A DNA stretch of 64,000 bases, taken from NCBI RefSeq assembly GCF_053078305.1, contig NZ_CP166879.1, one strand, 5' to 3'. Positions 10,164 to 51,321 of the stretch are shown here, in pieces (position 1 is the stretch's first letter; every line of letters starts with the position of its first letter). The notes beneath the pieces are model-generated. The model did no database searches. It worked only from the letters and a program-made list of their open reading frames with translations, and was not told where the DNA came from. Made by a program: the position numbers and the translations under genes.

Positions 10164-10385
10164 TCAGTTCAGAGTAACGCTCATCAACCGGACATACGGG
10201 CCAAAACTGTCCTTACGGCGTTCAGCAAACACGGCCAGCACACCGGGAATATCCTGCACTTCACGACCGGTATACGTTTCAGCACTGCCGTGCCAGCGGT
10301 ACTTACCGGTACAGAACGGAAAAAGACGGGATGCAGGATGCTGTTGGTGAATACGCATGGCTTCACCACGGGTGATAATTTTCAT
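10164..10385 (-). CDS. DUF987 protein (YeeT/YkfH family)
   Basis: 73 aa MKIITRGEAMRIHQQHPASRLFPFCTGKYRWHGSAETYTGREVQDIPGVLAVFAERRKDSFGPYVRLMSVTLN. Confidence 0.75.
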   Translation of the reverse strand: MKIITRGEAMRIHQQHPASRLFPFCTGKYRWHGSAETYTGREVQDIPGVLAVFAERRKDSFGPYVRLMSVTLN

Positions 10386-10453
10386 GATGGGATACCTCTG
10401 AAGACAGAAGATAAAAGTGAAAACAAGTGTGATGTGGTTGTGATGGTGACGGG

Positions 10454-10930
10454 TTAAAGCAGACCGTGTTCAGCAAAGGAGAAAACCTGGCTGCCACCGA
10501 TTATCAGATGGTCCGGCACCCGGATATCCACCAGGGCCAGTGCCTGTACCAGACGTTCCGTAATAAGGCGGTCAGCCTTACTGGGTGTGACTTCACCTGA
10601 CGGGTGATTGTGCGCCAGCACCACGGCAGCGGCATTGTGGTACAGGGCACGTTTAATCACTTCCCGGGGATGGACTTCCGTGCGGTTGATGGTGCCGGTG
10701 AAGAGGGTTTCACCGGCAATCAGCTGATTCTGATTGTTCAGATACAGCACCCGGAACTCTTCCCGCTCCAGTCCCGCCATGTTCAGAATCAGCCACTCCC
10801 GTGCCGCACGGGTGGAGGTGAAGGCCACGCCGGGTTCATGAAGATGGCGGTCCAGGGTTTTCAGGGCCCGCAGAATGAGACTGCGCTCGCCGGGCGTCAT
10901 CTCTCCGGGCAGAAAGGAAAGCTGTTGCAT
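10454..10930 (-). CDS. RadC-like JAB-domain protein (YeeS/YkfG/YfjY family)
   Basis: MQQLSFLPGEMTPGERSLILRAL... with JAMM motif HNHPSGEVTPSKAD; alternative start at 10945. Confidence 0.85.
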   Translation of the reverse strand: MQQLSFLPGEMTPGERSLILRALKTLDRHLHEPGVAFTSTRAAREWLILNMAGLEREEFRVLYLNNQNQLIAGETLFTGTINRTEVHPREVIKRALYHNAAAVVLAHNHPSGEVTPSKADRLITERLVQALALVDIRVPDHLIIGGSQVFSFAEHGLL

Positions 10931-10945
10931 TGTGCTTCTCTCCAT

Positions 10946-11428
10946 TCAGTCGATGATGCGCATAATGGCGCTGCATTCCGGATGCTGCAGGGCGTAATCC
11001 CGCAGCCGGTAATAATGGACCGTCATGGCATAACACTCCGTACGACAGGCATGATGACTGTACGTCATCAGACAGGCAGCAATGCCGGCAGCTTCCGGAC
11101 TCATTTCAGCGCGGTTACCGTTCATGGCATTGAACAGCACCCATGTTTCGTCATCATCATCCGGTTCGGGCGCCATAAATGCGCCACCGTTGTTCAGGGT
11201 GTACAGACTCCAGATACCACCGCAGTAGTCTTCACACAGACGGTCCATCCAGCCGAAGATACGGGGCTCCAGGGTCACCCACTGTGGAATGAGGCCAAAG
11301 TGCTGCGGCCAGAAGCTGATGCGCTGTTCATCAGGGACGGGAGTGGCAACCAGTTGAGACTGGTTATTCCCTGATGCAGCGGTCACGGAAACAGAAGGTG
11401 TGGTGGAATTATGCGAAGAGGTTGTCAT
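10946..11428 (-). CDS. Antirestriction protein (ArdB/KlcA-like; YafX/YfjX family)
   Basis: ATG at 11428 gives MTTSSHNSTTPSVSVTAASGNNQSQLVATPVPDEQRISFWPQHFGLIPQWVTLEP...; position in the array matches yafX/yfjX. Confidence 0.8.
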   Translation of the reverse strand: MTTSSHNSTTPSVSVTAASGNNQSQLVATPVPDEQRISFWPQHFGLIPQWVTLEPRIFGWMDRLCEDYCGGIWSLYTLNNGGAFMAPEPDDDDETWVLFNAMNGNRAEMSPEAAGIAACLMTYSHHACRTECYAMTVHYYRLRDYALQHPECSAIMRIID

Positions 11429-11516
11429 GAGATTATTCCTTATAAAAAGCAAATGAATGGAAGAAGTCGCGGGGCAGGGACGGACATGTCAGAACTGCGC
11501 TTTCAGGGAAAAGGCA

Positions 11517-12335
11517 TCAGCGCATACTCTCCAGCAGTGTTTCTGCCATCACCCACAACGCCCGGTTGAGCTTAATGTCGGTGTCGATGCTGTGAATGGC
11601 ACGGGTATGGATACGTTTCCCTCTGGCACTGCGACCGGAAATCCCGCCTTTCAGCATATTTTCCTGGATGGTCTGATAAGTACTCCACAGGTCCTTACCG
11701 TAATCCTCCCGGCGTCGTGGTGTCAGAATGTCGGCGGTGGTGACGGGCTGATGTTCGTCACCATAACGGTAAGTCAGCGCCGCCTGTGCCAGCGCCTGAC
11801 GTGCCGGTGGCGGTAAGAGCAGCGACTGCATGGCATCACGCTTTTCCTCAATCCGGTCAAAAACGCCCACCACTTCGTAAGCCCCTTCAATAACTTTCTC
11901 CACCACGTCTCCCCGGTGCGGAACACGCACCTCTCCCAGAGACTGACCGCAGACGCACCCGTTCTGACAAACGAATCTGAAGTAACCCGGCAGCATCTGG
12001 TAGCTGGAGGTACCGTCATGGGAATTGAGCAGGATGATTTCCGGGACATGCTGTCCGTTTATCTCTCCGGCCCGCCGCAGACGCAGCATGTGTTTTGTGT
12101 ATCCCCGGCGGCCCGGGTCACGTACGCGGGTCTGGCAGGCGAAGAATGGCTGAAAACCTTCCCGCTGCAGGCTTTCCAGTACGGTGATGGTGGGGATCCA
12201 GGTATAGTTCTCGCTTCTGGATGTGTGCTTATCTTCCCCGAATACGCTGGGGACGACTTGCATCAGTTCTTCGCGAGTTAAGGGGCGGTCACGGCGTATC
12301 TGGTTCGCATAACCAAAACGACTGGCTAATCGCAT
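11517..12335 (-). CDS. UPF0380/DUF932-type protein (YafZ/YfjQ-like)
   Basis: 272-aa ORF in conserved array position; family recalled. Confidence 0.65.
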   Translation of the reverse strand: MRLASRFGYANQIRRDRPLTREELMQVVPSVFGEDKHTSRSENYTWIPTITVLESLQREGFQPFFACQTRVRDPGRRGYTKHMLRLRRAGEINGQHVPEIILLNSHDGTSSYQMLPGYFRFVCQNGCVCGQSLGEVRVPHRGDVVEKVIEGAYEVVGVFDRIEEKRDAMQSLLLPPPARQALAQAALTYRYGDEHQPVTTADILTPRRREDYGKDLWSTYQTIQENMLKGGISGRSARGKRIHTRAIHSIDTDIKLNRALWVMAETLLESMR

Positions 12336-12434
12336 AATTTGCTCCTTATCGGTGGTTAAGATTTGCTGGTGTAATAAATGAAAAAGCCACGTCTCCCGGA
12401 GAAGACGCGGCCTGATGGGTGAAATGAATGACGT

Positions 12435-12668
12435 TTATTGTCTGAGAAGACCGTCACTGGCGAGCCGCGTATTAAGCACCTTTCCGGCATCGGGTTCAGA
12501 ATTCCGGCTGCGCCAGCGTCGCTGACCTTCCGCGTTGCGGATAACCCGACGGAAATGCATTCCCGGGTCATTCTGGATAAACACATTGCGGTAAGCGGTT
12601 ATGACAGCAACCGCCTGCCCGTATGAGAAAGATCCTTCAGCCAGGACATACTCTGTGTAACCCGGCAT
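12435..12668 (-). CDS. DUF905 small protein (YkfF-like)
   Basis: 77 aa [52 protein letters not shown]... Confidence 0.6.
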
Positions 12669-12746
12669 ATCTGTTTTCTCCTGATAAATAAAAAGCCTCT
12701 GCCACGCGTTGTGACAGAGGCTGAAGCATGAAACTGACTTCAGGGA

Positions 12747-13202
12747 TCAGTTAACGTTTTTTCCGGAAACGGTAATCAGCAGTGGATGGTAGTCCTGGGG
12801 ATCGAAAACCGATAACGGCAGACTGACACGATGGCCGTTACTTTCTTCAGTTGCTTTAATGATTTCGGTTGTGGCGATATTTTCCACGCACTCCGTTTCC
12901 AGAAATGCGTCTGTGGTTCGCGTGGCATTACTGTCACCAAAAGCTTCCGTTTCCATTTTTCTGGTCACCAGCGTCTGACCATATTTGTCTTTGAGTTGCA
13001 GAGTGATGGTGAGGGGGCCAAATCCTTCACCGTTTCCGCCATTATCCAGCCGGAACTGGTAAGCACAAATATTTCCCGGGAGCCATATCGTATCTGTATT
13101 GCGTATACTGATGTAACGATGATCCTGTGCCCGGAGTGGGGCAGACCACGTTAACCCCAGAATGAAGGCGGTAATCATGCAGGTTTTGAACAGGTGAATC
13201 AT
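12747..13202 (-). CDS. Exported protein with signal peptide
   Basis: 151 aa; N-terminal hydrophobic leader MIHLFKTCMITAFILGLTWSAPLRA. Confidence 0.5.
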   Translation of the reverse strand: MIHLFKTCMITAFILGLTWSAPLRAQDHRYISIRNTDTIWLPGNICAYQFRLDNGGNGEGFGPLTITLQLKDKYGQTLVTRKMETEAFGDSNATRTTDAFLETECVENIATTEIIKATEESNGHRVSLPLSVFDPQDYHPLLITVSGKNVN

Positions 13203-13277
13203 GGTATTTACCTCTCTGAGTCATGACGATGACACTGACAAATCAGGTGATAAAACGTAAAAGGCGCAGAATAGCCG

Positions 13278-15800
13278 TTATGCCGGTAACTCCGGAGGTA
13301 ATGCTTCTTCCAGTCGGTTAACCATATTGCCGAGATGGGATGCATCATATTCCATGACGGGGCGTTGCCTGATGATACTGACCACCAGTGGTTTGATTAA
13401 CATATTGGTCGCGGCCCGTTGTTGTATACCGGCGGCGAAAATGATCTCCAGAGCATTCTGATCGATAACACGGGCCAGATTCTCGTTCAGATTTTCAATC
13501 TCATGTCCGGTCAGCAGGAAACTGCCGGCAAGCCATGTCACCTGCTCCTGAATCATTGCCAGAATTTTGACGCGATCTTCTTCAACCAGCGCTCCGGCAA
13601 TTTTTCCTGATACAGCGGAGGCAATCATTCCCCCCAGAACACCGCCAACCACACGCCCTGTCAGTGCACCAAATGGTCCCAGTGGACTGAACAGTATCCC
13701 GCCCGCCACTGACCCGACAGCTCCACCTGCAACACCGGAAGATGCCACGGCAAGATTCCTGATGAACTGCGTACCGGAGATCCGTCCCCGCAACATTTTG
13801 ATCATGTCAGGGCCGGTTGTGACAGCTACCAGTGCCAGAGATGTCACCAGCGTACCCTTCATCACTTTGTTCAGGGCACTGATATTTCCTGCACCGGTCC
13901 CCTTCTGAAGAGCCAGTCGGACAGTCGGGCTGGCAGTCGAAAAATCAATGTGCTTCAGCATACCCTGAACAACACTGAGCCGGTGGAGTTGCTGGGTTGT
14001 GACGTAGACAGCCAGTGTGCGGGTGAAGGTTTTTCCTGCCTGGACAGCAGCTGTCTGCAGGGCAGCATCGCGATCGCCGGTGCTGAGCCAGAAGACCGAT
14101 GCCGTCAGGGCAAAACTGATCCCTCCGGCCGCCAGACTGACAACCGAACCCTCGGCAATATCATAAGTGACCGATTCGATGGTCCCGAACCGGGTGATAT
14201 TACGGGCCTGAGTATAAGTCAGATGTCCCCGACGAATCAGCCGGGACGCTTCTGCGGGATCGGTTACACCGGGTACTTTACCTTCGCGGATCTTATTCCT
14301 CATGGTTTCAACAGCGCCGGCATACTGATCACGGGGGACTTCCAGTTGCATGGGGCCATTATTTCCCATGTAACGATACTGTCCGTTTTGTCCGTCGAAT
14401 GCCGCACCGACGCTACGGGCTGCAGTTGAACAATATTTCGTCTGGATTTCTGTTCCGCTGACCAGTCTGTCTGCTCCATTTCTGGCATTATTATCACCGA
14501 GGATCCGTGCGTTTTTCAGACGGACTCTGTCGACAATATGGTTTCCCCGTTCAGCGGCAAACCCATGTCCCTGCCCTCCGGAAGCAAACATTTTCTCATT
14601 TGTACTCCAGGTTTCCGGCAGTTTCATGAGAATCAGACCATTCGCCGTTGCATCGGAAATAAAACCGGTGTAAGAACGTTCATAAATGTCCTGACACAGT
14701 GTTTCTGTTTCGCGACAAAGAGAGGAGCAGTACCATTCCGGATCCGGCTTATGATTTTCCGGGGCATGATGTACTTCTGTCAGCCCGCAGGAGGCACAGA
14801 TACGAAGCTCATCCACGTGATGGAATGATAAAAAACGGCGACCTTCTGAAAAGGGATACCAGTCACCGCCGTCCAGGCAACGATCGAGAAAATCGTCATT
14901 CGCTTCCGGTGATAAATTCAGGCGGTTCCGGAAGAGCGTTTTCAGTTCATCAGGTGTGAATGACAGGTTCTCTTTCAACTGTTCGTTAAACCCTGCCATG
15001 TTTCTTTCATACCAGGCATTGTTCAGTAACCAGTTTCCGTCTGCCAGTTCAAATTCCCTCAGCTCTCCCCGGGAAATCCGTTGAGAAATGAGCGTCAGCC
15101 AGATGCGCTCCGTCAGTGAGTCAGGAAGGCTGTAATCGTTTTGCAAACTGGTCAGCCACGATTTACTGTTGAGCACCGGTTGTTCTTCCAGTGTCTGGCT
15201 GATGGCACAGGTCAGTTTTTTCAGCGCCTGGATCTGGCTGGCCGCCCATAGCAGCGTCACTAATGCAGCCAGCCAGTACAACAACCCGCCCCACCACATC
15301 AGTGACGGTGAAATATCGTACTGTAACGCGATCAATGGTGCGCATGCAGAACACGCCATAAGGAAAAAGGCAGTATAAAAACAGCAGTAATACCCGTTAA
15401 TTTCCTTGCTGATATCTTCTGGTGTGATCCCGTTCTGCTGAATGTTTTTGATCTGCAGGGGAACAGCCAGCAGACCACCGGCGAGAGCAGTGGTCAGAAT
15501 AAATTTCACAGAGTCAAAGGTGTGAGCCTCCAGCGCGATATGTTTACCATCAAGTCCCCACATGAAGCTGATGATCATTCCGGCAATCGTCAGAAATACG
15601 CCTGCCAGCCAGCGAATATGGAACAACCGGGTTATGCGTTCGGTGATATAGCCAGCCAGTAAGGCCGGGCCGAACAGACACAGCAATATGAGCCCTGCCA
15701 GCGCAGAAGCCGTGCTGATTAATGCTCTGAACAAAAGGCGAAGAATGGCAAATCCTGCGATCAGCAGGATCAGCGCGCCGACTATCTGTAACATAGTCAC
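13278..15800 (-). CDS. Large inner-membrane protein (yeeR-position, Ag43-linked)
   Basis: 840-aa ORF; N-terminal third has multiple hydrophobic helices; immediately downstream of flu as yeeR is in CP4-44. Confidence 0.6.
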   Translation of the reverse strand: MTMLQIVGALILLIAGFAILRLLFRALISTASALAGLILLCLFGPALLAGYITERITRLFHIRWLAGVFLTIAGMIISFMWGLDGKHIALEAHTFDSVKFILTTALAGGLLAVPLQIKNIQQNGITPEDISKEINGYYCCFYTAFFLMACSACAPLIALQYDISPSLMWWGGLLYWLAALVTLLWAASQIQALKKLTCAISQTLEEQPVLNSKSWLTSLQNDYSLPDSLTERIWLTLISQRISRGELREFELADGNWLLNNAWYERNMAGFNEQLKENLSFTPDELKTLFRNRLNLSPEANDDFLDRCLDGGDWYPFSEGRRFLSFHHVDELRICASCGLTEVHHAPENHKPDPEWYCSSLCRETETLCQDIYERSYTGFISDATANGLILMKLPETWSTNEKMFASGGQGHGFAAERGNHIVDRVRLKNARILGDNNARNGADRLVSGTEIQTKYCSTAARSVGAAFDGQNGQYRYMGNNGPMQLEVPRDQYAGAVETMRNKIREGKVPGVTDPAEASRLIRRGHLTYTQARNITRFGTIESVTYDIAEGSVVSLAAGGISFALTASVFWLSTGDRDAALQTAAVQAGKTFTRTLAVYVTTQQLHRLSVVQGMLKHIDFSTASPTVRLALQKGTGAGNISALNKVMKGTLVTSLALVAVTTGPDMIKMLRGRISGTQFIRNLAVASSGVAGGAVGSVAGGILFSPLGPFGALTGRVVGGVLGGMIASAVSGKIAGALVEEDRVKILAMIQEQVTWLAGSFLLTGHEIENLNENLARVIDQNALEIIFAAGIQQRAATNMLIKPLVVSIIRQRPVMEYDASHLGNMVNRLEEALPPELPA

Positions 15801-15914
15801 TCCGTGATGAATATCATGTTATTGTTAATGCCAGCGAATGTGGCGTTGAAGATCCGTTGCGCCGGTCCGGGTCCCGGTCATGATGACCGGGACCACAGAG
15901 AGGCGATGGTTCTG

Positions 15915-18900
15915 TCAGAAGGTCACATTCAGTGTGGCCTGACCGTTATACCCTTCAGCGCTGCTGCCGCTGACGCTGTGGGCATAACCGGCCTGAACGC
16001 CCAGGGTGATATTTTCCCGGACACGGGCTTCCAGTCCGGCCTGCAGGTCCAGTGACGTGCCATTCCGGGACGGTGAGAACGTCATGTTACTGCCGGCTGC
16101 AGCTGTACCCATGCTCATGTCCCCCCGGGAGCTGAAGGTGCGGATAACAGAAGGTTGTACCCACCAGTTCACAGGCAGTTCACTCACACCGTGTTTTGTA
16201 CTGTCGCGCAGGGTGTCACGGGATGAGGTGCCTTCACCAAAGGTCATATCGTTGTGGCTGCCCAGACGGAAACCGGCACGCACATGTTGTGCACTGCCAT
16301 ACCCGAACTTCACATAACCGGCGTTATCCTGGCCGTCATCCAGGGAGAGTCCCTGCCAGGTGTACTGCAGTTGCGGCTCCAGCATCAGATTGTCAGTGAT
16401 ACTGAAGGGCAGACCGGTTTCCAGCGAACCCAGCCAGCCCCACCCCCGGGCGCGGAAGTCGTTATTGTCCGTTGACGCTTTCATGCTGTGGCGGGTTCCC
16501 AGGGCCACAATGTCAGCCCACAGGCCGGAGGATGTATGTGTCAGATTCAGGTATCCGCCAAGGCTGCCGGCATCATCCCGGACCGTGCCGGCACGGGAGG
16601 CGTCATCATCCTTAACATCAACGGAAGAATGGCCTGCAGCACCATATATCCCTGCGGTCACAGACATACCGGCAACCTCTGTTCTCAGCAGGTCACCCTC
16701 CAGGCGGACGAAGCCATAGCTGCCGCTGCTTTCCGGCGTGGCCCCACGGGCAATACCGCCGTTGTTATCGTGACCGAGATGGCCGCCCTGAATGCTGAGA
16801 CGGACGCTGTTATTTTCACCGTTTACACCGGTCTGATGGCTGCGTGAGCCTGCCAGAATCCGGTCATAGTCCATTGCCTGTGTCAGCATGGAGGCATACA
16901 GGGGGACTTCTGCACGATAAGCATTTTCACTGCGCAGATACCAGCTCTCATCACTGTCCCGGTTGAGGGAGTAGTTAAAGGCACCGGCCTGCAGCCTGTT
17001 CCCCTGGACAAAGGCCCCTTCCTCCGTGGTGGCACCGTTAATGGCTTCCACCACCTGAATACCCTTACCGCTGGTCGCCAGCCCCGACGCACTGTTGCCA
17101 GCGTTCACCAGGTTCAGGATGGTTTTTCCGGTTGCCCTGCCACCGTCAATGACCAGTCTGTCAGCATTGTTCTGTGCCATATCCGGGCGTACACGCAGGC
17201 TGATGGTGCCATTCTGTCCGTTCAGGTTTTTCACTTTCAGGGTTGCCGGTACGAACTTCCCTGTGCGGGTGGAGGTGAAATGAATCTGTCCGGCATGGCT
17301 GAGGTCATCCACCACCGACTGCACCGTGGCGTTATCGGGGATATTCCAGGTGGCACCGGAGGCGAGAGTGACATTCGTGGGGTCAATGGCACCGTTCAGC
17401 ACAGTGCTGCCGGTCAGCTTCAGGGCTGTACCGCGCTGAGCAATGACATCCGTGGTGACGGTACTGTCGTTCAGCGTCAGCGTGCCTTCATTCAGGTTGA
17501 CGGCTTTCTGGGTGAGTGTGGTGTTGCTGACAGTGAGTGTGCCACTTCCTGATTTTTCCACGCTGCCGTTACCGGTGAGAGAGCCTCCCTGCAGGAGTGC
17601 ATCGCCTTCACGGATGGTCAGGGTATCGTTGTTCACCGTCTTCCCGGAAAGGGTAAGTATGGCGCCGTTATTCAGCGTGGTGGTGCCCGCCAGTGTGCCG
17701 CCCCTGGCGGTGAACAGTCCGCCATTTACCGTGGTATCCGTGGCCGTATCACCGGCGTTCAGCGTGAATGAACTGCCTTTTTCCAGCATCAGGGCATCCG
17801 CCTGACCGCCTCCGATACTGAATGCCTTTCCGTCGCTCCGTGTACCACTGACAGCGGCACCGGAATCGGCCAGCAGTACACCGCCATTCCCCATGGATAC
17901 GGTGGTGGCGGCACCACCGTTGCGGACATCCAGCGTTCCGCCATCATCCACACGGGTATTAGTGGCTGTGTGTCCGCTCAGCACATCCAGACGTCCGCCA
18001 TTTTCCAGTACGACATTATCAGCTTTACCCTCCACAACAGAGAATGCTCCCTGGCGGTTTATGCCGGTAACGGTTGCAGCCGTACTGGTAACCAGTGCGC
18101 CGCCCTGCTTCAGGGTGACATTCGTGGCTGTACCACCGGCGTTCACCTGCAGTTTGCCTTTCTGGTTAACGGTGGTGAAATCCGCCAGACCACCTTCCTT
18201 GACAATCTGCCAGCCGTCACTGTTTACAACCGTGTCAGAGGCTGTGCCTCCGTTGTGCACATACTGGTAACCGCCATTCAGTGTGGTATCCAGCGCATGC
18301 CCGTGTACCGTCTGGTCGCCGCCGGCATAAACCACAGTGGTATTTGCTGTTCCTTCAGCAGCCACAATCTGACGACCATTTTTATTGATAGTGGTACGTA
18401 CGGCATTTCCGCGAACAAACTGCCCGGTATCACCATTTTCTGCATCTGGTCCCCCTTCCGCGCCGGTATTCACAACCGTGTCGGTTGCCATTGCGCCGGA
18501 TTTGACGGCCTGCCAGCCCTTCTCATTAATGACGGTACCCGTTGCAATCCCGCCTTCATGTACCCACTGCTCACCGCCGTTCAGAGTGGTGTTCACTGCC
18601 TGCCCCTGAAGGCTCTGTCCGCCTCCGGCACTGATAACCGTGTCTGAAACACTTCCGCCGGGATTCACTCTCTGAAGACCACCACTGGTGACAGTCGTTT
18701 TGTTGGCTGTACCGCCATCCTGTACCCATTGACCGCCGGTATTGGCCTCATTGTCCGGCCCGTACTCCAGCCCGGTACTGATGGTCATTCCGTTGGTCAT
18801 ACCGAAGACAATCTGGTTGTCATGATTTGTCAGTGTTCCGCCGCTCACGGTTTCTCCCGCCTGTACAACCGTGTCAGCAGCCAGTGCCGGGACTGATGTG

Positions 18901-19034
18901 ACAGCAGCAAGAGACAGCGCAACCGCCACTCCGGCGCGTTTTCCCCGTGAGCGGGCCAGTTCGGAGGCCACCACCAGGGTGCCCGTAATGTGATTCCATA
19001 CCAGCCTGTAGCTGGTGTTCAGATGTCGTTTCAT
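15915..19034 (-). CDS. flu: Antigen 43 self-associating autotransporter adhesin
   Basis: Internal ATG (plus 'cat' 19032-19034) gives 1039 aa starting MKRHLNTSYRLVWNHITGTLVVASELARSRGKR (extended autotransporter signal); repetitive passenger; C-terminal beta-barrel ending ...GQATLNVTF. Confidence 0.92.
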   Translation of the reverse strand: MKRHLNTSYRLVWNHITGTLVVASELARSRGKRAGVAVALSLAAVTSVPALAADTVVQAGETVSGGTLTNHDNQIVFGMTNGMTISTGLEYGPDNEANTGGQWVQDGGTANKTTVTSGGLQRVNPGGSVSDTVISAGGGQSLQGQAVNTTLNGGEQWVHEGGIATGTVINEKGWQAVKSGAMATDTVVNTGAEGGPDAENGDTGQFVRGNAVRTTINKNGRQIVAAEGTANTTVVYAGGDQTVHGHALDTTLNGGYQYVHNGGTASDTVVNSDGWQIVKEGGLADFTTVNQKGKLQVNAGGTATNVTLKQGGALVTSTAATVTGINRQGAFSVVEGKADNVVLENGGRLDVLSGHTATNTRVDDGGTLDVRNGGAATTVSMGNGGVLLADSGAAVSGTRSDGKAFSIGGGQADALMLEKGSSFTLNAGDTATDTTVNGGLFTARGGTLAGTTTLNNGAILTLSGKTVNNDTLTIREGDALLQGGSLTGNGSVEKSGSGTLTVSNTTLTQKAVNLNEGTLTLNDSTVTTDVIAQRGTALKLTGSTVLNGAIDPTNVTLASGATWNIPDNATVQSVVDDLSHAGQIHFTSTRTGKFVPATLKVKNLNGQNGTISLRVRPDMAQNNADRLVIDGGRATGKTILNLVNAGNSASGLATSGKGIQVVEAINGATTEEGAFVQGNRLQAGAFNYSLNRDSDESWYLRSENAYRAEVPLYASMLTQAMDYDRILAGSRSHQTGVNGENNSVRLSIQGGHLGHDNNGGIARGATPESSGSYGFVRLEGDLLRTEVAGMSVTAGIYGAAGHSSVDVKDDDASRAGTVRDDAGSLGGYLNLTHTSSGLWADIVALGTRHSMKASTDNNDFRARGWGWLGSLETGLPFSITDNLMLEPQLQYTWQGLSLDDGQDNAGYVKFGYGSAQHVRAGFRLGSHNDMTFGEGTSSRDTLRDSTKHGVSELPVNWWVQPSVIRTFSSRGDMSMGTAAAGSNMTFSPSRNGTSLDLQAGLEARVRENITLGVQAGYAHSVSGSSAEGYNGQATLNVTF

Positions 19035-19214
19035 CAGCTTTTCCTTAGATTGAGGGTGAATAAAAAAGCCGGTACCCACAAACGTGGATACCGGCAGGTA
19101 AAGGGTTACAGTGCCGGAGGTCCGGCTGTGGGAGTTTCTGAATTGTGGTTCTGTTGTTCCCTGAATGTCTTTCTGTACGTATCTGTGCATGTTACTGACA
19201 AAGGTTATTATTAG

Positions 19215-19260
19215 CTTATCGATCGATATAAACGATCGATAAAATAGGTATCGATCGTTT
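19215..19260. promoter_or_regulatory. agn43 phase-variation switch: three GATC Dam sites in putative OxyR operator
   Basis: GATC at 19221-19224, 19234-19237 and 19253-19256 within tcgatcgatataaacgatcgataaaataggtatcgatcg, about 190 nt upstream of the flu start. Confidence 0.7.
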
Positions 19261-19361
19261 TATTCTATTGTTTGGCTATTGCACGGACAAGAGAGACAGT
19301 AACGAAAACAGCGCTTTTGTGAGCAGACTCAGAGTCAGGGAGGGCATCAGTCACGACAGGT

Positions 19362-20234
19362 TCAGAAGAAAATCCAGTTCCATACCGCACGGGCAACAGA
19401 GACCACCGTGTTACGAACAGCGCGCAGGGCCGTACGGACAACAGAGGCAACACAGACGCTCTCCGCTGTGTCAAATATCCGGTCCACCGCACCGGTAAAC
19501 TGTTCACGGGCCTGAGACCGGACAGATTCCGTGCGCAGCTCGTCCTGCAGTCGGGTCATCAGGGGACTGGCGGCATGGTCGGGAAGCGCTGTCATGAGCG
19601 CACTGACCAGCGTATCCAGTTCCCAGCCGGTGCGGGCCGATACGGCCACAACCGGATGTACGGGCCGGAACAGACGGAATACCGCCTCCGTTTTTTCGCG
19701 AATATTCTGTGCCTGTGCAGGAGAAGGCTGAATACCGGCCATATCCCATTCATGGCAGGGCTCCGTTTTGTCGGCCTGCGTCACCACAAACAGCACCTGC
19801 TGATGTCCGCACTGCAGGATGTGTCGCCAGAAATACTCATCCACAGACAGGGCACGGTCATCGGCTTTAATCAGCCACAGTACCAGGTCAAGTTCAGGCA
19901 GAATGTCACGGTACAGGGCTTCATACTCAGCATCCCTGTCCCGGCTCTCGCCCACCCCGGGCAGGTCAGTGATAACCATGCTGTGACCATGGCCACTCAG
20001 ACGGAAGCGCTGCACTTCCCGGGTGCCAGCGTGAACATCACTGACCGGGGTGACCTCCCCCTGAAACAGTGCATTACAGAGTGAGGATTTACCGGCCCCG
20101 CTTTTACCCATAATGCCAATCACGGGTTCGTGGCTGGTGAGTTTGCGCAGATGTTCCAGGATGTGACGGGAAAGTGAATAAGGCAGGGAGGAGAGTGGTT
20201 TTTCAATTGCCTCAATGGCATCAGACGGATTCAT
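19362..20234 (-). CDS. GTPase of the YeeP/YkfA/YfjP family
   Basis: ATG at 20234 gives 290 aa with P-loop GIMGKSGAGKSS and DLPG motif; directly upstream of flu as yeeP is in CP4-44. Confidence 0.7.
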   Translation of the reverse strand: MNPSDAIEAIEKPLSSLPYSLSRHILEHLRKLTSHEPVIGIMGKSGAGKSSLCNALFQGEVTPVSDVHAGTREVQRFRLSGHGHSMVITDLPGVGESRDRDAEYEALYRDILPELDLVLWLIKADDRALSVDEYFWRHILQCGHQQVLFVVTQADKTEPCHEWDMAGIQPSPAQAQNIREKTEAVFRLFRPVHPVVAVSARTGWELDTLVSALMTALPDHAASPLMTRLQDELRTESVRSQAREQFTGAVDRIFDTAESVCVASVVRTALRAVRNTVVSVARAVWNWIFF

Positions 20235-20543
20235 ACATGTATTCCCGGTGAAAAAAAGACAAAACCCCGCGCACCGGAAAGGTGGCGGGGGACTCACGGA
20301 GATAATATATGTCTGAAATTATTTTGATTGTATGGTGTCATGAGATAGCTGAAACCGAGCTATGGATATGCAAATAATAACCTACAGTTTCCGGTTTGAG
20401 GATCGATGAAATCGTTGATTAATGTTAATATACCGCCAATTTTTCAGCGTTCTGATTCTTTCAGTGAATCAACGTATTGGGCTTCCCTGATAGCTGAACG
20501 CTTTAACTTACAATGCTCAGAATTGATAAGAAAAAAGGAATAT

Positions 20544-31000: not shown

Positions 31001-34000
31001 TGGTACTGGCACTCTGACTCTGCGTTGTCCCGGCCTCACGGCGGTCGTGCGTTGTCTTACTGCTGCCAGTGGTGAAACCAATACCACCGGTACCCATCAG
31101 ACCGGATTTCTTCGTTTCCTTAAAGCGCCAGGACGTATCTGTACTGGTGGCAGCAAGAACATCAACATGGTTACCCGCCGCCAGTGACACATCCCGGTCA
31201 GCCACCACATCCGAACCCTCTACCGTCAGGTTATTACCGGCGTTAACGGTCACGCGGTTTCCCGACAACAGGGAGCCCTTCTCACGGGTGACGCTGTCTT
31301 CCGTGATGGTCCGGGTGGTCTGATGGCTGAGGAGACGGTTACGGGTTTCCCCTGATTCACTGTAGTGATAATCACTTTCCGTGGCAGTACCCAGTACGAT
31401 GTCATGACCGGCATTCACACGGATATCGCCCTTTGCCGTTACAGCGGTCGCAACTGAGGTGATATCCCGTCCGGCAGTAACCGTGATGTCACCGCCACTG
31501 GTCATGTCTGTTCCCTGCTGCCGGACCGAATCATGAACCGTCTTCATGCTGAAAGTGCTGTCGTGGTCACCTGTGCCTGTGGACTCCGCAGCCATGTTCA
31601 CATCCCGTCCGGCGCGGATATCCATACTGTTTTCAGCCATAATACCGGCAGCCTGGCTGTTCACATCACGACCGGCGGAAAGCATCAGACTGTTCCCGGC
31701 AGTGACCGTGGGGGCCACGGCATGAGTTTCATACCACCCGGACCCGCCATAGCGACGACGTTCTCCGGCCTGTATCGCGTTCATGTTCAGGTCATTACCG
31801 GCGGACAGTAACACGCTGTCACCGGCAGAAACGGCGGCACCGGTGATACTGATATCCCCGGCTGCGCCCATAAACAGTGAGTCCGTTGCCCTGACAGCAG
31901 CCAGCGGACCGGTATCCGTTCCGCTGAAATGGTTATATCCGTTGTTCATCGCCCACTGTTCTGTACGGGTGAGGTTACTGATGTTTCCGGTGGCGCTTTC
32001 CAGGGATACGGTTTTACCGCTGATGACTGAGCTGATATTGCCAATATCCCCGATGGCCTTCAGGTTCAGTGCACCACCGGCGTTTATCAGTCCGGCATTC
32101 AGGTTGTCGATACTACCTGTGCTGTCGAGCAGGAGGTCATTCTGTGCGTTGATGCTGCCGCCGCTGTTGGTGATATTGCCACCCGCAAGCTGCACGTTGT
32201 TCCCGCTGATAACGCTGCCATTATGCAGAGTGATATCTTCCGGAGACAGATACAGTTTCGGAACCATGACTGTCTGTCCGTTGATGGTGACGGACTCCCA
32301 CCACAGTATGCTTCTGGTCAGTTGTGCAACCTGCCCGGCGGTCAGCGACACACCAAAGGTCAGTCCGAGCGCTTTCTGTTGTGCTGCCGCGCTGTCCATC
32401 AGGTATTTCATCTGCGCCAGGTCAGAGCCTGTGCCGTTGATATAACGTGAGCCCGTCTGGTTCAGTATGACGTTACTGACATACCGGGTATCAAAAGCCG
32501 CATCCCCCAGAAAGCGGTAATCTTTTTCCGGTTTCAGGCCAAGACGGTCGAGAATGTACGACGAGCCCAGAAATTGTTTTTCATCGGTATATGCCGGGTC
32601 TGTTTCTCGTGGTGCCTGTCCGGGTTGCATCCTGAGCAGGTCATACAGTCCGGCAAACAGACTGCTGTCCACCTTTCCGAGACCATCCAGTTTCGGGTTC
32701 ACCGTAATCAGATACGGACTGTCCGGGTCCGTGGACGGGACAAAATAACCATTGTTACCGGATGGCAGGGGATAGCTGCTTACACTTGCCCCGGACAGCG
32801 ACAGCGCACCCGGGATATCCTTCAGCGTATCCGGCAGCGCGTCATTCCATACAGGGCCGGTTATCCCGGTACCGCTTTCATTCAGCAGGGCTTCACCGCT
32901 CACCCCCTGACTGACCGTCGGTGGTGTCAGGGAGTTCAGCGAAGGCACCGTTATCGTGTTACCTGCACCACCGGCCCGGGGCATGACAGTGGTATTACCG
33001 GTGTCAGTGGCAAAGCTGGCAGACACATCACCGGCAGCGCTGATAACCGCCCGGTACTGACCTGCCGGAGAGGTGCCACTGGCTTCTGTCGCATCCGGTG
33101 AGACCTGGCGATAGACCTTATACCATGGCTCAGTAAACCACGCTTTGGGGAGTGAGCCGGAGGCAAGCCGCCAGACCGTTTCCTTTCCGGTGGTTCCCTC
33201 CTGCCAGCCCTGATTGTTCAGTGTGTCGCCACTCAGGGTCATATTGCCACCGGCGAGAATAAACGATGCCTCATTATCCAGTCGTCCTGCACGGATATGC
33301 ATATCAGCGCCGCCGGATATCCTGGCAGCATGGCCGGAGGCACTGACTGTCACCGTTTCCGTATCGCCCGTACGGATACGGTATTCATCAGGTACCGTGG
33401 CACCCTTACCCCAGTACACGGCCAGATATTCCACACCATCATGCCGGACAACACCCCACCACCGGTTATTTTCCGGAACCGGTGAAATCACCCCGTGACT
33501 GCTTCCAGGAATGACCTCATGGCTGGCCGAAATGGCATCCCAGGAATTCAGAAGATGCGCCGTATTCATGGTGATATCGCCACGTGTGGTTTCAATATTA
33601 CCGGAACGGTTAATGATTTCGCTGTTTGCCGTCCCGCTGCTGTCCTTCTGTACCCACAGACTGTTGCCGGCCAGGATATCACCATGCTGGTTATGCAGAC
33701 GGTCTGTAAACAGCTTCAGGTTATTCCCCGCATAAATCAGCGCACTGTTCAGCAGGGTACCGGCCACATTCATTGTCAGACTGCCTGCCGTGCCGGTAAA
33801 ACCACTGATGGTGATATCACTCCGGCTGTTCAGACTCACATCGCCACCGGCCTGAAGTGAACCCGGTGCGTTAAGGAAAAGACGCTGTGCGCTGAAAACA
33901 CTGTTGCCTTTACCGGCAGTCAGCGTTCCATTGTTGGTGAATGCCTCTCCGGCACTGAGCATTATGGCATCACCCTGCATCACACCGCCGTTGGTGATGG

Positions 34001-37000
34001 CGTTCTGCGACGTGACGGAAAGGGTTTTCCCTGCGGCCAGGGTACCGTAATTCGTGAGGGCAGCAATCAGTTTCAGTGTGACATCACCGGTGGCCACCAC
34101 CTGGCCCTGACCACTGAAGTCCTGAGCGTCAAGCAGCAGGTTGCCTGCACTGTACAGCCGCCCTGTACCATTTTGCAGCAGTGAACTGCCCTTGACGCCA
34201 AGCCCGGAGGTTCCCAGCAGGGTACCACTGTTGCTGAATGTGTGGTAATTCACCAGCAGGTCCGCCCCCTGAAGCGTACCGGTATTATTCAGCGTGGTTC
34301 CTTTAACGTCGGCACTGCCGGTGGCAAGTACGCGTCCGCCGTTGACAGTATTCACCACATCCAGCAGCAGGGTGGCAGCCTGTACCAGTCCGCTGCCGGT
34401 GTTCGCCAGCACCTGCGCCGTCAGCGTGAGGTTGCTGCCGGAGAGGATTTTGCCGTCGTTCTGCAGACGGTCTGTGGCGTTCAGGGAAAAACCGCCACCA
34501 CCCTGTATCGTGCCCTGGTTACTCAGGGTCGCAGTACTGACATTCAGTGCATTCCGGCTCATCAGAACACCACCGGAACGGTTGTTCACGCCACCGGAGG
34601 CGGCCAGCGTCAGCGTTTCGCCCTGCAGATGCCCGCCGTTTGTGAGTTGTCCTGCCGTGATGGTGGTGGCATTTCCCTGTAATTGCCCGTCGTTTGTGAC
34701 ACTGTCTGCCTTCAGCGTCAGCACACCTGCACTGAGCAGTTTTCCGTTCGCCTGATTGTTCAGCGTCTGATTCACCGTGAGCGTGAGAGTATCCACACCG
34801 GTGATGTCACCCGCACTGGTCAGTGAGTTCGCCTTCAGGGTCAGATTTTTTGCAATCCATTGTCCGCTGTTGCTTAAATTCAGTGCACTGAGCGCCATTT
34901 CACCGTTCGAGGTGACTTTGCTGCCTGCTGTGCTGACGAGCTCACCCGTCAGACGTGCAGTCAGGCTGTCAGCCGCCTGGATCGCCCCGCTGTTTGCCAG
35001 ACTGTCTGCGGTGATCAGCACCCGTTTGCCCTGCCAGTGTCCGGAACTGGTAATACTGCCTGCGGTGATTGTCAGATCGCCGCTGGTCAGCAGTGAACCG
35101 CCGTTATTCATCAGCGCAGGTTGAGGGGATGCCATATCCATACGGGCGGCAAGCGTCAGCGCGGCTATCCCGGTGAGCGTGCCACTGTTGGTGACACTGT
35201 TCTGACAAATCGTGACATGGTTACCCTGGACAGTGCCGCGGTTATCCAGTGAGTTTCCATCAAGAGAGAGCGTGCCGGCCGAAAGCAGACTGCCCCGGTT
35301 GTCCGTGGTGGCTGCGTTCAGCGTGGTGTCACCCTGGCTCATGATATCGCCGGTACTGGTCAACTGACCGGTTGCCGAAGCAGTAAGGTTACCGGTTGCC
35401 AGCACGGAACCACGGTTCGCCCATCTGTCCGCCTGCACGGTGAGATTCTGTCCCTGCGTGGTCCCTGCGGTATTCAGTGTTTTACCCCGGAGGGAGAGGT
35501 CGCCCGCCGTCAGCCAGCGTCCGTTACGGCCCTGTGAGAGGGTGTCGCCTGCAAGCGCCAGTGCACCGGCGCCCTGCAACAGACCATCACCATCCAGCGT
35601 GGTCGCCCTGACGTTCAGCGTGTCAGCGATGATTTTTCCCGGATTGCTGAGGGAGGCAGTGTTTAACGTTAAACCATTATCACCGGTGATAAGCCCGCTG
35701 TTGCGGATGTCCGGTATATCCAGCGTCAGGTCTGCAGCACTGTACAGCGTGCCGTTCTGCTGATTATCAAGCCGCTGTGTGTTAACGGTGAGTGAGGCCT
35801 TCCCCTGCAACAGACCGCTGTTGGTCAGGGTCTGTGACTGTGTATTCAGGGCGGAAGCAACAAGTACGCCGCTGCTGGTCAGTTCCGGCGCACTGAGGCT
35901 GAGCGACGGGGCGCTGCTTTTCCCGCTGTGGGTGAGCTTTTCACTGGCGTTCAGGGTGAGGATGTCTCTGGCAGCCTGTGTTCCGTCAAGCTGTGCGTTC
36001 TGCACATCCACGCTGACACTGTTGCCCTGCGTCTGCGCAGTGGTCGTGGTCTTCAGACTGTTGCCTTTTACAGACACCGTGCCACCCGCACTGGTTTCAC
36101 CCGCCAGCGTGGAAGACGCGCTGTTCAGCATGAGGTTACCGTCACTGTGCGTGACTGATTTTTCTGTGGTGGTCAGTGTGTCTGCAGAAGCCACAAGTTC
36201 CTTTGCCCCGGAGAGGGTACCGCTGTTGTTTATCTGCGTGGCACTGAGCGTCAGCACGTCATCGCTGACGAGTCTGCCGCGGTTTTCAAGTGTACCGCTG
36301 ACGGTAACGCGGGCACTGTCTTTTGCACCGGCATCACCGGACAGTGTGGCATTGCGGGCGCTGATATCGAGTGTGCTGCCACTTTTAATACTGCCGGTGC
36401 TGGTCAGGTCAGTGGCGGTGACTTTCAGGCCATTCCCCTGGACGGTACCGGTATTACTGAATGTCCCGGTTTTCACCGTGGCATCGCGCCCGGCAACCAG
36501 TGTCCCACCGTTGTTCAGGCTGCCGGAGCTGACGGTGAGTGTTTTCCCGGCAACGCTGCGGCCTTTCAGTGTGGTATCCCCCGTGGTGGTAAGGGTGACA
36601 TTTTCAGCTGCATTCACGGCCCCGGAAGTCTGGTTCAGGTGCTGTGCACTGAGCATGGCGTTCTGTCCGGCAGTCAGTTCACCACCGTTCTGTACAATCT
36701 GCCCGGATGAAGACAGCACCAGATTTTTATCCGTCACCAGACGGGACTGATTCAGTGTCAGTCCCGTTGTCCCGGTAACGCTGAGATTTCCTCCGGCTTT
36801 GTTATCCCCTGAAAGTGAGACATCCGTTCCGGTTACGGTGGTACTGCCGCCGGCAAGGCTGTTCTTCAGGACCAGTTTTCCGGAACTGCTCAGTATGATA
36901 TCGCCCTCCCGGGCATAAAGGTTACCAAGATTAACCCCGACACCATTTTCAGTGGAGGTCAGATGAATACGCCTGGCGTACATTCCACCGAGCGCGCCAG

Positions 37001-37733
37001 TATCAACGGCAACTTTCGGCACATCACCTTCGCCCTTCAGGGCACTGACACGACCATCTGCAGTTACACGGTTAGCACCTGCAGTGACAGTTAAATCCTT
37101 CGCATGAAGCGCGGCATTCACTTCCGTTGCACGGGCAATAATGGATACGGCATCGCTCCGGGTGCCGTCCAGGCCCGCGCCATTGATGGTGATACTGCCT
37201 TCAGTCACCTCCAGCGCCTGCAGGCTGCCGTCGGCATTCATCACAGGTCTGCCCGTGGTGAGCGTCGCGTGCGGCGTGTTGATAAAGCCACAGCCGTCAC
37301 AGGTGATACCATACGGGTTGGCAACCATCACATTCGCCGCTTTGCCGGCCACTTCCGTATAGCCCTGCAGCAGTGAACGCTTACCGCCGGTCACTTCGTT
37401 GATGATACCCTTCGCTTCCCCGCCCGCTTTCAGGTTCGGGTTATTCTGTATCAGTCCACCAAGCTGCGTCGGATTAAGCTTACCGGTGGCATTATTGAGA
37501 ATCAGCCCTTCCTTCCCGACGTTGTAATCCGTAAACCGGTTATGCGAAATCCCGGCCCCGTCCGGCGTGGCAATGTTCACGACCGGCACACCATTTGCCG
37601 CTTTATCCATTCCGGCCCCGTTTTGTGGGGTGATGACGGCCCCCACAGCCGGTAACAACGGCTGCCCGGCGATAATTGTACTGATAAGGTAACTCAGCAG
37701 GCGGTAAGTGAAGCGAACAGGAGGCTGATGCAT
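28023..37733 (-). CDS. cdiA: CdiA contact-dependent inhibition exoprotein (TPS family)
   Basis: 3236 aa; extended signal [48 protein letters not shown]; TPS domain [26 protein letters not shown]; long filamentous-haemagglutinin-type repeats; VENN motif at 28956..28967 followed by a 310-aa C-terminal toxin region. Confidence 0.92.
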
Positions 37734-37745
37734 GGTAATAATCCC

Positions 37746-51235: not shown

Positions 51236-51291
51236 TTGATTTAAATGGTGCCGATAATAGGAGTCGAACCTACGACCTTCGCATTACGAAT
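51236..51291 (-). repeat. thrW-proximal att repeat (3' 46 nt of tRNA-Thr plus ttgatttaaa)
   Basis: Identical to 5333..5388. Confidence 0.85.
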
Positions 51292-51321
51292 GCGCTGCTC
51301 TACCAACTGAGCTATATCGGC
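51246..51321 (-). tRNA. thrW: tRNA-Thr (anticodon CGU)
   Basis: Reverse complement GCCGATATAGCTCAGTTGGTAGAGCAGCGCATTCGTAATGCGAAGGTCGTAGGTTCGACTCCTATTATCGGCACCA; 76 nt with CCA end; immediately downstream of proA. Confidence 0.95.

What the first reader, a model, noticed from the sequence alone, without database searches (positions are those of the whole stretch)
19215..19260. Antigen 43 Dam/OxyR switch is intact
Three GATC sites at the spacing expected for the agn43 OxyR operator imply epigenetic phase variation of this island-encoded adhesin. This is expected biology, recorded to explain the structure.
Basis: partly seen in the sequence, partly recalled or inferred. Interest (0 to 1): 0.3.

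Follow-up and report, generated by a model that had tools for sequence, protein, structure and literature searches.

The report
Intact Ag43 Dam/OxyR phase switch
The three GATC sites are the well-known methylation-sensitive OxyR operator that switches the E. coli adhesin gene agn43 on and off; here it is complete and sits in front of an intact gene, which is ordinary, expected biology.

Summary
Observation confirmed and interpretation supported; this is known biology. Three GATC sites lie at 19221, 19234 and 19253. Read on the minus (gene) strand, their 19/13 spacing equals that of the K-12-type agn43 regulatory region and 16 other sequences examined. A triple GATC cluster somewhere in 64 kb is not rare (P about 0.4). 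The evidence is the exact spacing (P about 0.002), the position just after a TTGTCC-17-TAGAAT promoter, and 95/101 identity to the K-12-type region.

The footprint-equivalent stretch is the best conserved part of the promoter region across alleles. Downstream lie a 222-nt leader (Rfam IS102/IsrC, 253 bits) with a conserved terminator-like hairpin, and an intact 1039-aa Ag43 gene. yeeR and irmA follow, with no terminator-like site until after irmA. This is the published OxyR-repressed agn43-yeeR-irmA operon, so the switch probably also governs IrmA.

Five substitutions versus K-12 lie near the operator, three of them inside the footprint. All five sites also vary among other natural alleles. 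Methylation, OxyR binding and switching cannot be tested from sequence.

Side observations: agn43 coding sequences are almost GATC-free, but so are other island genes. The same operator cassette precedes a non-Ag43 gene in Citrobacter and Enterobacter.

The parts
19285..19290 (-). -35 hexamer TTGTCC of the agn43 promoter
   Evidence: Consensus scan, TTGTCC-17 nt-TAGAAT, 9/12. Identical in the K-12-type sequence.
19262..19267 (-). -10 hexamer TAGAAT
   Evidence: TAGAAT in 10 of 11 aligned alleles and TAGGAT in one.
19253..19256 (.). GATC-I (promoter-proximal). Its G at 19256 is the predicted transcription start.
   Evidence: Transcription start at the G of the upstream GATC is recalled from the abstract of Wallecha 2002, which is not held. 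In an ABU83972-type allele this G lies 228 nt before the ATG, matching the 5' RACE start reported at 228 bp for strain EC958 in PMC4807369.
19234..19237 (.). GATC-II
   Evidence: Invariant in all alleles examined, 19 nt after GATC-I.
19221..19224 (.). GATC-III
   Evidence: Invariant in all alleles examined, 13 nt after GATC-II.
19215..19272 (-). Stretch equivalent to the OxyR DNase I footprint (-16 to +42). It overlaps the -10 hexamer, +1 and all three GATCs.
   Evidence: Footprint limits recalled from Wallecha 2002 and placed on the window through the alignment to the K-12-type sequence. 35 of 58 columns are invariant across 11 alleles, against 14-27% in the flanking non-coding stretches.
19222..19258 (-). 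Best match to the 37-nt OxyR tetramer consensus (ACGATCGATACCTAT-N7-ATCGTTTATATCGAT)
   Evidence: 14 of 20 specified positions, the same score and register as the K-12-type sequence. The substitutions at +5 and +9 fall on N positions of the consensus.
19230..19260 (.). Perfect 12-bp inverted repeat AAACGATCGATA-N7-TATCGATCGTTT spanning GATC-I and GATC-II
   Evidence: The K-12-type sequence has one mismatch in this dyad, A instead of G at +5.
19035..19256 (-). 222-nt 5' leader of agn43 (IsrC / IS102 RNA)
   Evidence: Rfam RF00124 IS102 at 19258..19055, 253 bits against a gathering score of 46, model positions 1-206 of 206. Predicted fold -62.5 kcal/mol, z = -4.6. [quoted passage not shown]
19058..19095 (-). 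Terminator-like hairpin (12-bp stem, 8 G-C pairs) plus T run inside the leader, about 25 nt before the ribosome-binding site
   Evidence: 40 of 45 columns are invariant across 11 alleles including cah. The loop varies and the stem is kept.
15915..19034 (-). agn43: intact 1039-aa Ag43 autotransporter adhesin
   Evidence: 95% identity to K-12-type Flu with no gaps. Pfam ESPR, AIDA, AC_1 and Autotransporter. NCBIfam auto_Ag43 1889.8 bits. PDB 4KH3 Antigen 43, E = 2.9e-239.
13278..15800 (-). yeeR-position gene, full length (840-aa ORF), second gene of the likely operon
   Evidence: Same position as the annotated 2517-nt hypothetical gene in STEC17-190. Operon described in PMC4807369. No Pfam or NCBIfam match.
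12747..13202 (-). irmA (151 aa), third gene of the likely operon
   Evidence: Pfam IrmA PF18673, E = 2.1e-38. Published co-transcription with agn43 and repression by OxyR.
12694..12722 (-). First terminator-like site on the minus strand after the agn43 leader, just past irmA
   Evidence: Scan of 12400-16100 found no other terminator-like site on the minus strand.
19362..20234 (-). YeeP-like GTPase gene immediately upstream. It ends 71 nt before the -35 hexamer and is the conserved left neighbour of the switch.
   Evidence: Pfam MMR_HSR1. Annotated 'GTPase family protein' next to agn43 in every genome fetched.

Best explanation
The three GATC sites are the Dam methylation targets inside the single OxyR operator of the agn43 promoter, on the minus strand.

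How it works, by homology with the K-12 system: transcription starts at or next to the G of the first GATC (19256), from the TTGTCC-17-TAGAAT promoter. An OxyR tetramer bound to the unmethylated operator (about 19272-19215) covers the -10 hexamer and the start site. It represses transcription and shields the three GATCs from Dam, which is the OFF state. When the GATCs are methylated, OxyR cannot bind and the promoter is active, which is the ON state. Each replication produces hemimethylated DNA for which Dam and OxyR compete. Both states are therefore heritable but reversible.

The transcript carries a 222-nt leader (IsrC/IS102) with a terminator-like hairpin. It then most likely reads through agn43, yeeR and irmA to the terminator-like site at 12722-12694.

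Shown here: presence, spacing, position and conservation of all sequence elements, and intact downstream genes. Inferred: OxyR binding, differential methylation, switching and co-transcription in this strain.
For: - GATC positions.
- Identical 19/13 spacing and 95/101 identity to the K-12-type regulatory region.
- Promoter hexamers.
- OxyR consensus match of 14/20 in the same register as K-12.
- Across 11 alleles averaging 76% column identity, the three GATCs, their spacing and AAAACGATC are invariant. The footprint-equivalent stretch is 60% invariant against 14-27% in the flanking non-coding DNA. Three more alleles agree.
- The exact 91-nt promoter/operator variant recurs in 11 complete E. 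coli genomes.
- Rfam IS102 hit on the leader.
- Intact Ag43.
- No minus-strand terminator-like site until after irmA.
- Published mechanism and operon: PMC3764049, PMC4872104, PMC13337833, PMC4807369.
- The OxyR-repressed allele of strain 83972 also carries C at +9, and it shares the alignment of diverged alleles.
Against: - Nothing in the sequence contradicts the explanation.
- A 14/20 consensus match is not discriminating. Four sites in the window reach it, two of them overlapping registers inside this operator.
- A triple GATC cluster is itself unremarkable.
- Three substitutions fall inside the footprint (-14 T>C, +5 A>G, +9 T>C), and their effect on OxyR affinity is untested.
- dam and oxyR are not in the window.
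- The footprint limits and the transcription start come from my memory of Wallecha 2002, which could not be read.
- In EAEC strain 042 irmA has its own transcription start downstream of yeeR, so the operon reading may not hold in every strain.
Confidence: 0.9

Rival explanations
1. The operator is homologous, but in this allele the switch is biased or locked. The substitutions at -14, +5 and +9 change OxyR affinity or promoter strength. In particular, +5 A>G makes a perfect 12-bp dyad across GATC-I and GATC-II. The population might then sit almost entirely OFF or ON instead of varying at the K-12 rate.
For: Three substitutions lie inside the footprint-equivalent stretch. The perfect inverted repeat at 19230-19260 is absent from the K-12-type sequence. 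PMC2909390 notes that binding affinity and the number of GATCs correlate with switching behaviour at agn43.
Against: G at +5 is the majority state among the 11 alleles. C at +9 occurs in three other alleles, including strain 83972, whose operon is OxyR-repressed. C at -14 occurs in another allele. The exact 91-nt variant persists in 11 genomes.
Confidence: 0.08
2. The three GATCs are a chance cluster with no regulatory meaning.
For: With 165 GATCs in 64 kb, some triple within 36 bp is expected about 40% of the time. One other triple exists at 62769-62802 inside a coding sequence.
Against: The exact 13/19 spacing has P about 0.002. The sites and their spacing are invariant in 18 sequences while the surrounding DNA diverges. 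The position relative to the -10 hexamer is fixed, and the region is homologous to an experimentally characterised operator.
Confidence: 0.01
3. The GATC cluster acts mainly as a SeqA or Dam landing site, or its methylation directly stimulates the promoter, with OxyR playing a minor part.
For: Three GATCs within 36 bp could be a SeqA target when hemimethylated. seqA mutants alter Ag43 switching bias (review PMC13337833). From memory, Wallecha 2002 reported that methylation itself raises transcription in vitro.
Against: [quoted passage not shown] These effects add to the OxyR model and do not replace it.
Confidence: 0.02

Closest known systems
[quoted passage not shown]
   Same: Same promoter hexamers, three GATCs at the same 19/13 spacing and the same distance from the -10 hexamer and the ATG (-222, -203, -190). 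Same OxyR consensus score and register, same leader length, same downstream gene at 95% amino-acid identity.
   Different: Six substitutions in the 101-nt core (-56, -18, -17, -14, +5, +9). It sits in an island at thrW, not in CP4-44 (the K-12 location is from memory; context). The upstream GTPase gene and the downstream yeeR and irmA are intact, whereas the K-12-type strain has a truncated GTPase pseudogene.
agn43-yeeR-irmA operon of uropathogenic E. coli (Moriel et al. 2016, PMC4807369)
   Same: Same gene order and an IrmA-family third gene. No terminator-like site until after irmA. The published transcription start, 228 bp before the ATG, coincides with the G of GATC-I in an ABU83972-type allele.
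   Different: Co-transcription was not tested for this strain. In EAEC strain 042 irmA is transcribed from its own start downstream of yeeR (PMC9431211).
IsrC / IS102 RNA (Rfam RF00124), the agn43 leader
   Same: Full-length match at 253 bits, including the conserved terminator-like hairpin.
   Different: None seen. The leader is identical to the K-12-type sequence from +10 to the ATG.
Other Dam/OxyR switches: Salmonella/P22 gtr and opvAB
   Same: GATC sites embedded in OxyR half-sites, and methylation that blocks OxyR binding (PMC2909390).
   Different: gtr has three half-sites, two alternative OxyR positions and four GATCs in two pairs upstream of the promoter. OxyR acts there as both activator and repressor. 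Here there is one repressor site overlapping +1, as in agn43.

Membership tests
agn43 Dam/OxyR phase-variation operator | Three GATC sites, spaced 19 and 13 nt start to start on the gene strand | tested here: met
   19253, 19234 and 19221. Identical spacing in the K-12-type sequence and all other alleles examined.
agn43 Dam/OxyR phase-variation operator | GATC sites lie at or just after the transcription start of a sigma-70 promoter, so that bound OxyR occludes the -10 hexamer and +1 | tested here: met
   TTGTCC-17-TAGAAT ends 5 nt before GATC-I. The start site itself is inferred from the literature and from the -228 coincidence.
agn43 Dam/OxyR phase-variation operator | Recognisable OxyR tetramer binding motif covering the GATCs | tested here: inconclusive
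   14/20 to ATAGnTnnnAnCTAT-N7-ATAGnTnnnAnCTAT, equal to the K-12-type sequence. The same score occurs at two unrelated places in the window, so the motif alone does not discriminate.
agn43 Dam/OxyR phase-variation operator | The regulated gene is an Ag43/Cah-family autotransporter | tested here: met
   NCBIfam NF033177 at 1889.8 bits against a cut-off of 1200. Pfam domain set. 95% identity to K-12-type Flu.
agn43 Dam/OxyR phase-variation operator | OxyR binds unmethylated but not Dam-methylated operator DNA. The GATCs are unmethylated in OFF cells and methylated in ON cells. Switching is heritable. | not testable with these tools
   Requires gel-shift or footprint assays, methylation-sensitive sequencing and reporter switching assays.
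agn43 Dam/OxyR phase-variation operator | The host encodes Dam and OxyR | not testable with these tools
   Neither gene lies in the 64-kb window. Both are core E. coli genes by general knowledge. The source genome is not given.
IsrC / IS102 leader RNA (Rfam RF00124) | Score at or above the family gathering threshold over the full model | tested here: met
   253 bits against 46, model positions 1-206 of 206, at 19258..19055 on the minus strand.
agn43-yeeR-irmA operon | Gene order agn43, yeeR, irmA on one strand with no intervening terminator | tested here: met
   ORFs 19034-15915, 15800-13278 and 13202-12747. The only minus-strand terminator-like site is at 12722-12694.
agn43-yeeR-irmA operon | One transcript spanning the three genes, repressed by OxyR | not testable with these tools
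   Shown by RT-PCR, Western blot and qRT-PCR for EC958, CFT073 and 83972 in PMC4807369, not for this strain.

The most novel reading that the evidence does not exclude
The switch may be a portable cassette tied to the YeeP-like GTPase gene of CP4-type islands, able to put whatever cargo lies downstream under Dam/OxyR phase variation, and not a private feature of agn43. In Citrobacter braakii, C. amalonaticus and Enterobacter wuhouensis the same TAGAAT plus three-GATC operator follows a YeeP-like gene. There it faces a 154-aa signal-peptide protein with no family assignment. A weaker add-on is that the near-absence of GATC from agn43 and the GTPase gene helps insulate the operator. That add-on is undermined because cdiA, cdiB and other island genes are equally depleted.
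Probability: 0.2. Interest if true: 0.4.

Novelty: already known. Interest (0 to 1): 0.1.

Why it matters
It explains the local structure and predicts mixed ON/OFF expression of the Ag43 adhesin in the source strain. Probably the cytokine-receptor mimic IrmA varies with it, which matters for aggregation, biofilm and colonisation phenotypes and for interpreting single-colony experiments. It adds nothing new to the mechanism.

The intact state is worth recording. In close relatives the same locus is broken by insertion sequences: IS66 in STEC17-190 and IS100 in JML285. In 20KM2222 an IS1 sits between the GTPase gene and agn43.

Tried and rejected
- **Primary papers.** I tried to read Wallecha 2002 (PMC135096), Casadesus and Low 2006 (PMC1594586) and Wallecha 2014 (PMC4135670). 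None is held. The footprint limits and the transcription start are therefore from memory, cross-checked only by the -228 coincidence.
- **GATC clustering as evidence.** Rejected: P is about 0.4 for some triple in the window.
- **OxyR consensus score as evidence.** Weak: 14/20 also occurs elsewhere in the window.
- **The 1091-aa ORF starting at 19190.** It would extend Ag43 through the leader. Rejected, because other alleles carry indels in the leader that are not multiples of three, and the annotated start and the match to K-12-type Flu begin at 19034.
- **A GATC-free zone as part of the switch design.** agn43 has 0 GATC against about 8 expected, in 8 of 9 alleles. However cdiA (5 against 35), cdiB and the CP4 backbone genes are equally depleted, while yeeR is not. 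The depletion is not specific to the switch.
- **The Citrobacter cargo gene as an IrmA relative.** Rejected: no Pfam, NCBIfam or PDB match and no similarity to the window's IrmA.
- **The cargo gene in E. coli.** I looked for it behind the same operator. Its E. coli homologues sit in other contexts without the operator.
- **Covariation in the leader hairpin.** Only conservation and one G-U to A-U change were seen, so there is no compensatory evidence.

Full report
**1. The observation**

No other GATC lies between 15854 and 20401. GATC is under-represented in the window as a whole: 165 found against 251 +/- 14 in dinucleotide-preserving shuffles.

A triple within 36 bp is not a rare event. With 165 randomly placed sites it appears in about 40% of simulations. 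A second triple exists at 62769-62802 inside an flhA-like coding sequence. What is beyond chance is the exact 13/19 spacing (P about 0.002), the position, and the homology described below.

**2. What it is**

The gene is on the minus strand. Reading that strand, the elements come in this order:

- The stop codon of a YeeP-like GTPase gene, which occupies 20234-19362.
- A sigma-70-like promoter: TTGTCC (19290-19285), a 17-nt spacer, then TAGAAT (19267-19262).
- AAAAC, followed by GATC-I at 19256-19253, GATC-II 19 nt later and GATC-III 13 nt after that.
- A leader running to the ATG at 19034.

The ORF 19034-15915 encodes a 1039-aa protein. It is 95% identical, without gaps, to Flu/Ag43 of a K-12-type laboratory strain. 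It carries ESPR, AIDA repeat, autochaperone and beta-barrel domains. It scores 1889.8 bits on NCBIfam auto_Ag43 against a cut-off of 1200. It matches the solved Ag43 passenger 4KH3 at E = 2.9e-239.

The 441 nt around the site match about 4480 of 5426 complete E. coli genomes, always between 'GTPase family protein' and agn43 or cah.

**3. Comparison with the characterised K-12 region**

From -59 to +42, counting the G of GATC-I as +1, the window differs from the K-12-type sequence at six positions: -56, -18, -17, -14, +5 and +9. The GATC positions relative to the ATG are the same in both (-222, -203, -190).

The best match to the OxyR tetramer consensus is 14/20 at 19258-19222. This is the same score and register as in the K-12-type sequence, and +5 and +9 fall on unspecified consensus positions. 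The score alone is weak evidence. Four sites in the window reach it, two of which are overlapping registers inside this operator.

From memory of Wallecha et al. 2002 (J Bacteriol 184:3338), which is not held:

- Transcription starts at the G of the upstream GATC.
- OxyR(C199S) protects -16 to +42.
- A 101-nt region suffices for phase variation.

There is an independent cross-check. Moriel et al. [quoted passage not shown] In an ABU83972-type allele the G of GATC-I lies exactly 228 nt before the ATG. That EC958 has the same leader length is my inference.

**4. Conservation**

I aligned 11 regulatory regions spanning K-12-like, UPEC-like and cah-like alleles, with mean column identity 76%. The three GATCs, their spacing and AAAACGATC are invariant. 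The -10 hexamer is TAGAAT in ten alleles and TAGGAT in one.

| Stretch | Invariant columns |
|---|---|
| Upstream spacer (GTPase stop to the -35 hexamer) | 14% |
| -35 hexamer and promoter spacer | 22% |
| Footprint-equivalent stretch | 60% |
| Middle of the leader | 27% |
| Leader hairpin and T run | 89% |

Three more cah-type alleles show the same 19/13 triple. The window's states at +5 (G), +9 (C) and -14 (C) all occur in other natural alleles. One of these is strain 83972, whose operon is derepressed in an oxyR mutant. The exact 91-nt promoter/operator variant is found in 11 complete genomes. One small difference: +5 G makes a perfect 12-bp inverted repeat across GATC-I and GATC-II (19230-19260), which the K-12-type sequence lacks.

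**5.

The leader, 19256-19035 (222 nt), is a full-length match to Rfam RF00124 'IS102 RNA' at 253 bits against a gathering score of 46. This is the RNA also called IsrC. It contains a strong terminator-like hairpin at 19095-19068 followed by a T run. The predicted fold has z = -4.6. According to PMC5389530, citing Wallecha 2014, flu expression is controlled by antitermination of this upstream RNA. That is a second, known regulatory layer.

Downstream of agn43 lie a full-length yeeR-position gene (15800-13278) and irmA (13202-12747, Pfam IrmA E = 2.1e-38). The only terminator-like site on the minus strand is at 12722-12694, just after irmA. This is the agn43-yeeR-irmA operon shown to be co-transcribed and OxyR-repressed in UPEC (PMC4807369). 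In EAEC strain 042, however, irmA has its own start (PMC9431211). The switch here therefore probably governs three genes, not only the adhesin.

**6. Context**

The locus lies in a CP4-type island bounded by an integrase gene (5518-6873) next to pao genes on one side. On the other side the boundary is tRNA-Thr(CGU) at 51246-51321, next to proA and proB. From memory, this is the position of CP4-6 in K-12. 'Island-encoded' is correct.

The island also carries a mod/res pair of the Type III restriction-modification kind (20406-25237), a cdiBAI contact-dependent inhibition system and a TOTE conflict-system gene.

In the closest genome, STEC17-190 (99.8% identity), agn43 is split by an IS66 element. 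In JML285 it is split by IS100. In 20KM2222 an IS1 sits between the GTPase gene and agn43. Intactness is therefore not automatic.

**7. Mechanism**

The mechanism is the published one:

- OxyR bound to the unmethylated operator represses transcription and blocks Dam.
- Methylated GATCs exclude OxyR and allow transcription.
- Hemimethylated DNA after replication reopens the competition.

For this window the steps shown are the sequence elements and their conservation. Binding, methylation state, switching and co-transcription are inferred. dam and oxyR are not in the window.

**8. Side observations**

(a) The agn43 ORF has no GATC in the window, and none in 7 of 8 other alleles down to 71% protein identity. 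Synonymous-codon shuffles predict 6.4-10.1 per allele. The GTPase gene has 0-1 against about 3.3 expected. This is not specific to the switch. cdiA (5 against 35), cdiB (0 against 5) and the CP4 backbone genes are equally depleted, while yeeR (20 against 15.5) and the mod/res genes are not. It looks like a mosaic property of island segments.

(b) I scanned one genome for each of 100,044 species with AACGATC-N15-GATCGTT-NN-TATCGATCG. The scan found four loci.

- One is a short cah-like contig in a Collinsella MAG, probably contamination.
- The other three are in Citrobacter braakii, C. amalonaticus and Enterobacter wuhouensis. In the C. braakii locus, read in detail, ATGACA-17-TAGAAT plus the three GATCs follows a YeeP-like GTPase gene with 61% amino-acid identity.
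- There the operator faces a 154-aa signal-peptide protein with no family or structural match, unrelated to IrmA.
- E. coli homologues of that gene sit elsewhere, without the operator.

The operator may therefore be a cassette that can serve other cargo. This is untested.

**9. Verdict**

The feature is an already known system in its standard form. Interest is low. The side observations are modest leads.

Noticed in passing
window 15915-19034 (agn43) and 19362-20234 (GTPase); also L001, L018-L024: The agn43 coding sequence contains no GATC in the window and in 7 of 8 other alleles (down to 71% protein identity). Synonymous-codon shuffles predict 6.4-10.1 per allele. The upstream GTPase gene has 0-1 against about 3.3 expected. 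The three operator sites are the only GATCs in about 4.5 kb.
   Followed up: partly
window 7223-12195, 28023-39230 (cdiA, cdiB), against 13278-15800 (yeeR): GATC depletion is mosaic across the island. cdiA has 5 against 35 expected (z = -7.3), cdiB has 0 against 5, and the CP4 backbone genes from DUF5983 to antirestriction have 0. yeeR (20 against 15.5), the mod/res genes and the core genes are normal. The cause is unknown. It argues against the agn43 desert being a design feature of the switch.
   Followed up: partly
L012 5015-5200 (Citrobacter braakii), L013 5578-5745 (Enterobacter wuhouensis), L015 (C. amalonaticus): The same promoter/operator cassette (ATGACA-17-TAGAAT, three GATCs at 19/13, OxyR consensus 14/20) follows a YeeP-like GTPase gene. 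It precedes a 154-aa signal-peptide protein of unknown family instead of agn43.
   Followed up: partly
window 62769-62802: A second cluster of three GATCs within 34 bp lies inside an flhA/lfhA-like coding sequence in the core genome. Its spacing (9 and 21) is unlike the agn43 operator. It is most likely chance.
   Followed up: partly
window 19230-19260: A perfect 12-bp inverted repeat, AAACGATCGATA-N7-TATCGATCGTTT, spans GATC-I and GATC-II. The K-12-type sequence has a mismatch at +5. It might alter OxyR affinity or switching bias.
   Followed up: partly
L003 (STEC17-190), L002 (JML285), L023 (20KM2222): In the closest relatives the same locus is damaged by insertion sequences: IS66 inside agn43, IS100 inside agn43, and IS1 between the GTPase gene and agn43.
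   Followed up: no
window 20406-25237: A DNA methyltransferase (753 aa, N6_N4_Mtase) and a ResIII helicase (860 aa) look like a Type III restriction-modification pair. They are divergently transcribed from the GTPase gene, about 1.1 kb from the operator. The recognition sequence is unknown.
   Followed up: no
window 27611-39500 and 41641-44025: A cdiBAI contact-dependent inhibition locus (cdiA 3236 aa) and a TOTE conflict-system primase-helicase gene lie in the same island. tRNA-Thr(CGU) at 51246-51321 marks the island end next to proA and proB.
   Followed up: no
window 19035-19190: An in-frame ATG at 19190 gives a 1091-aa ORF that runs through the leader into Ag43. Indels in other alleles break this frame, so it is not coding.
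   Followed up: yes
L014 (contig JAIJJM010000733.1, labelled Collinsella sp. MAG): A 1.5-kb contig in a Collinsella metagenome-assembled genome carries a cah-type E. coli agn43 regulatory region. This is probably binning contamination.
   Followed up: no
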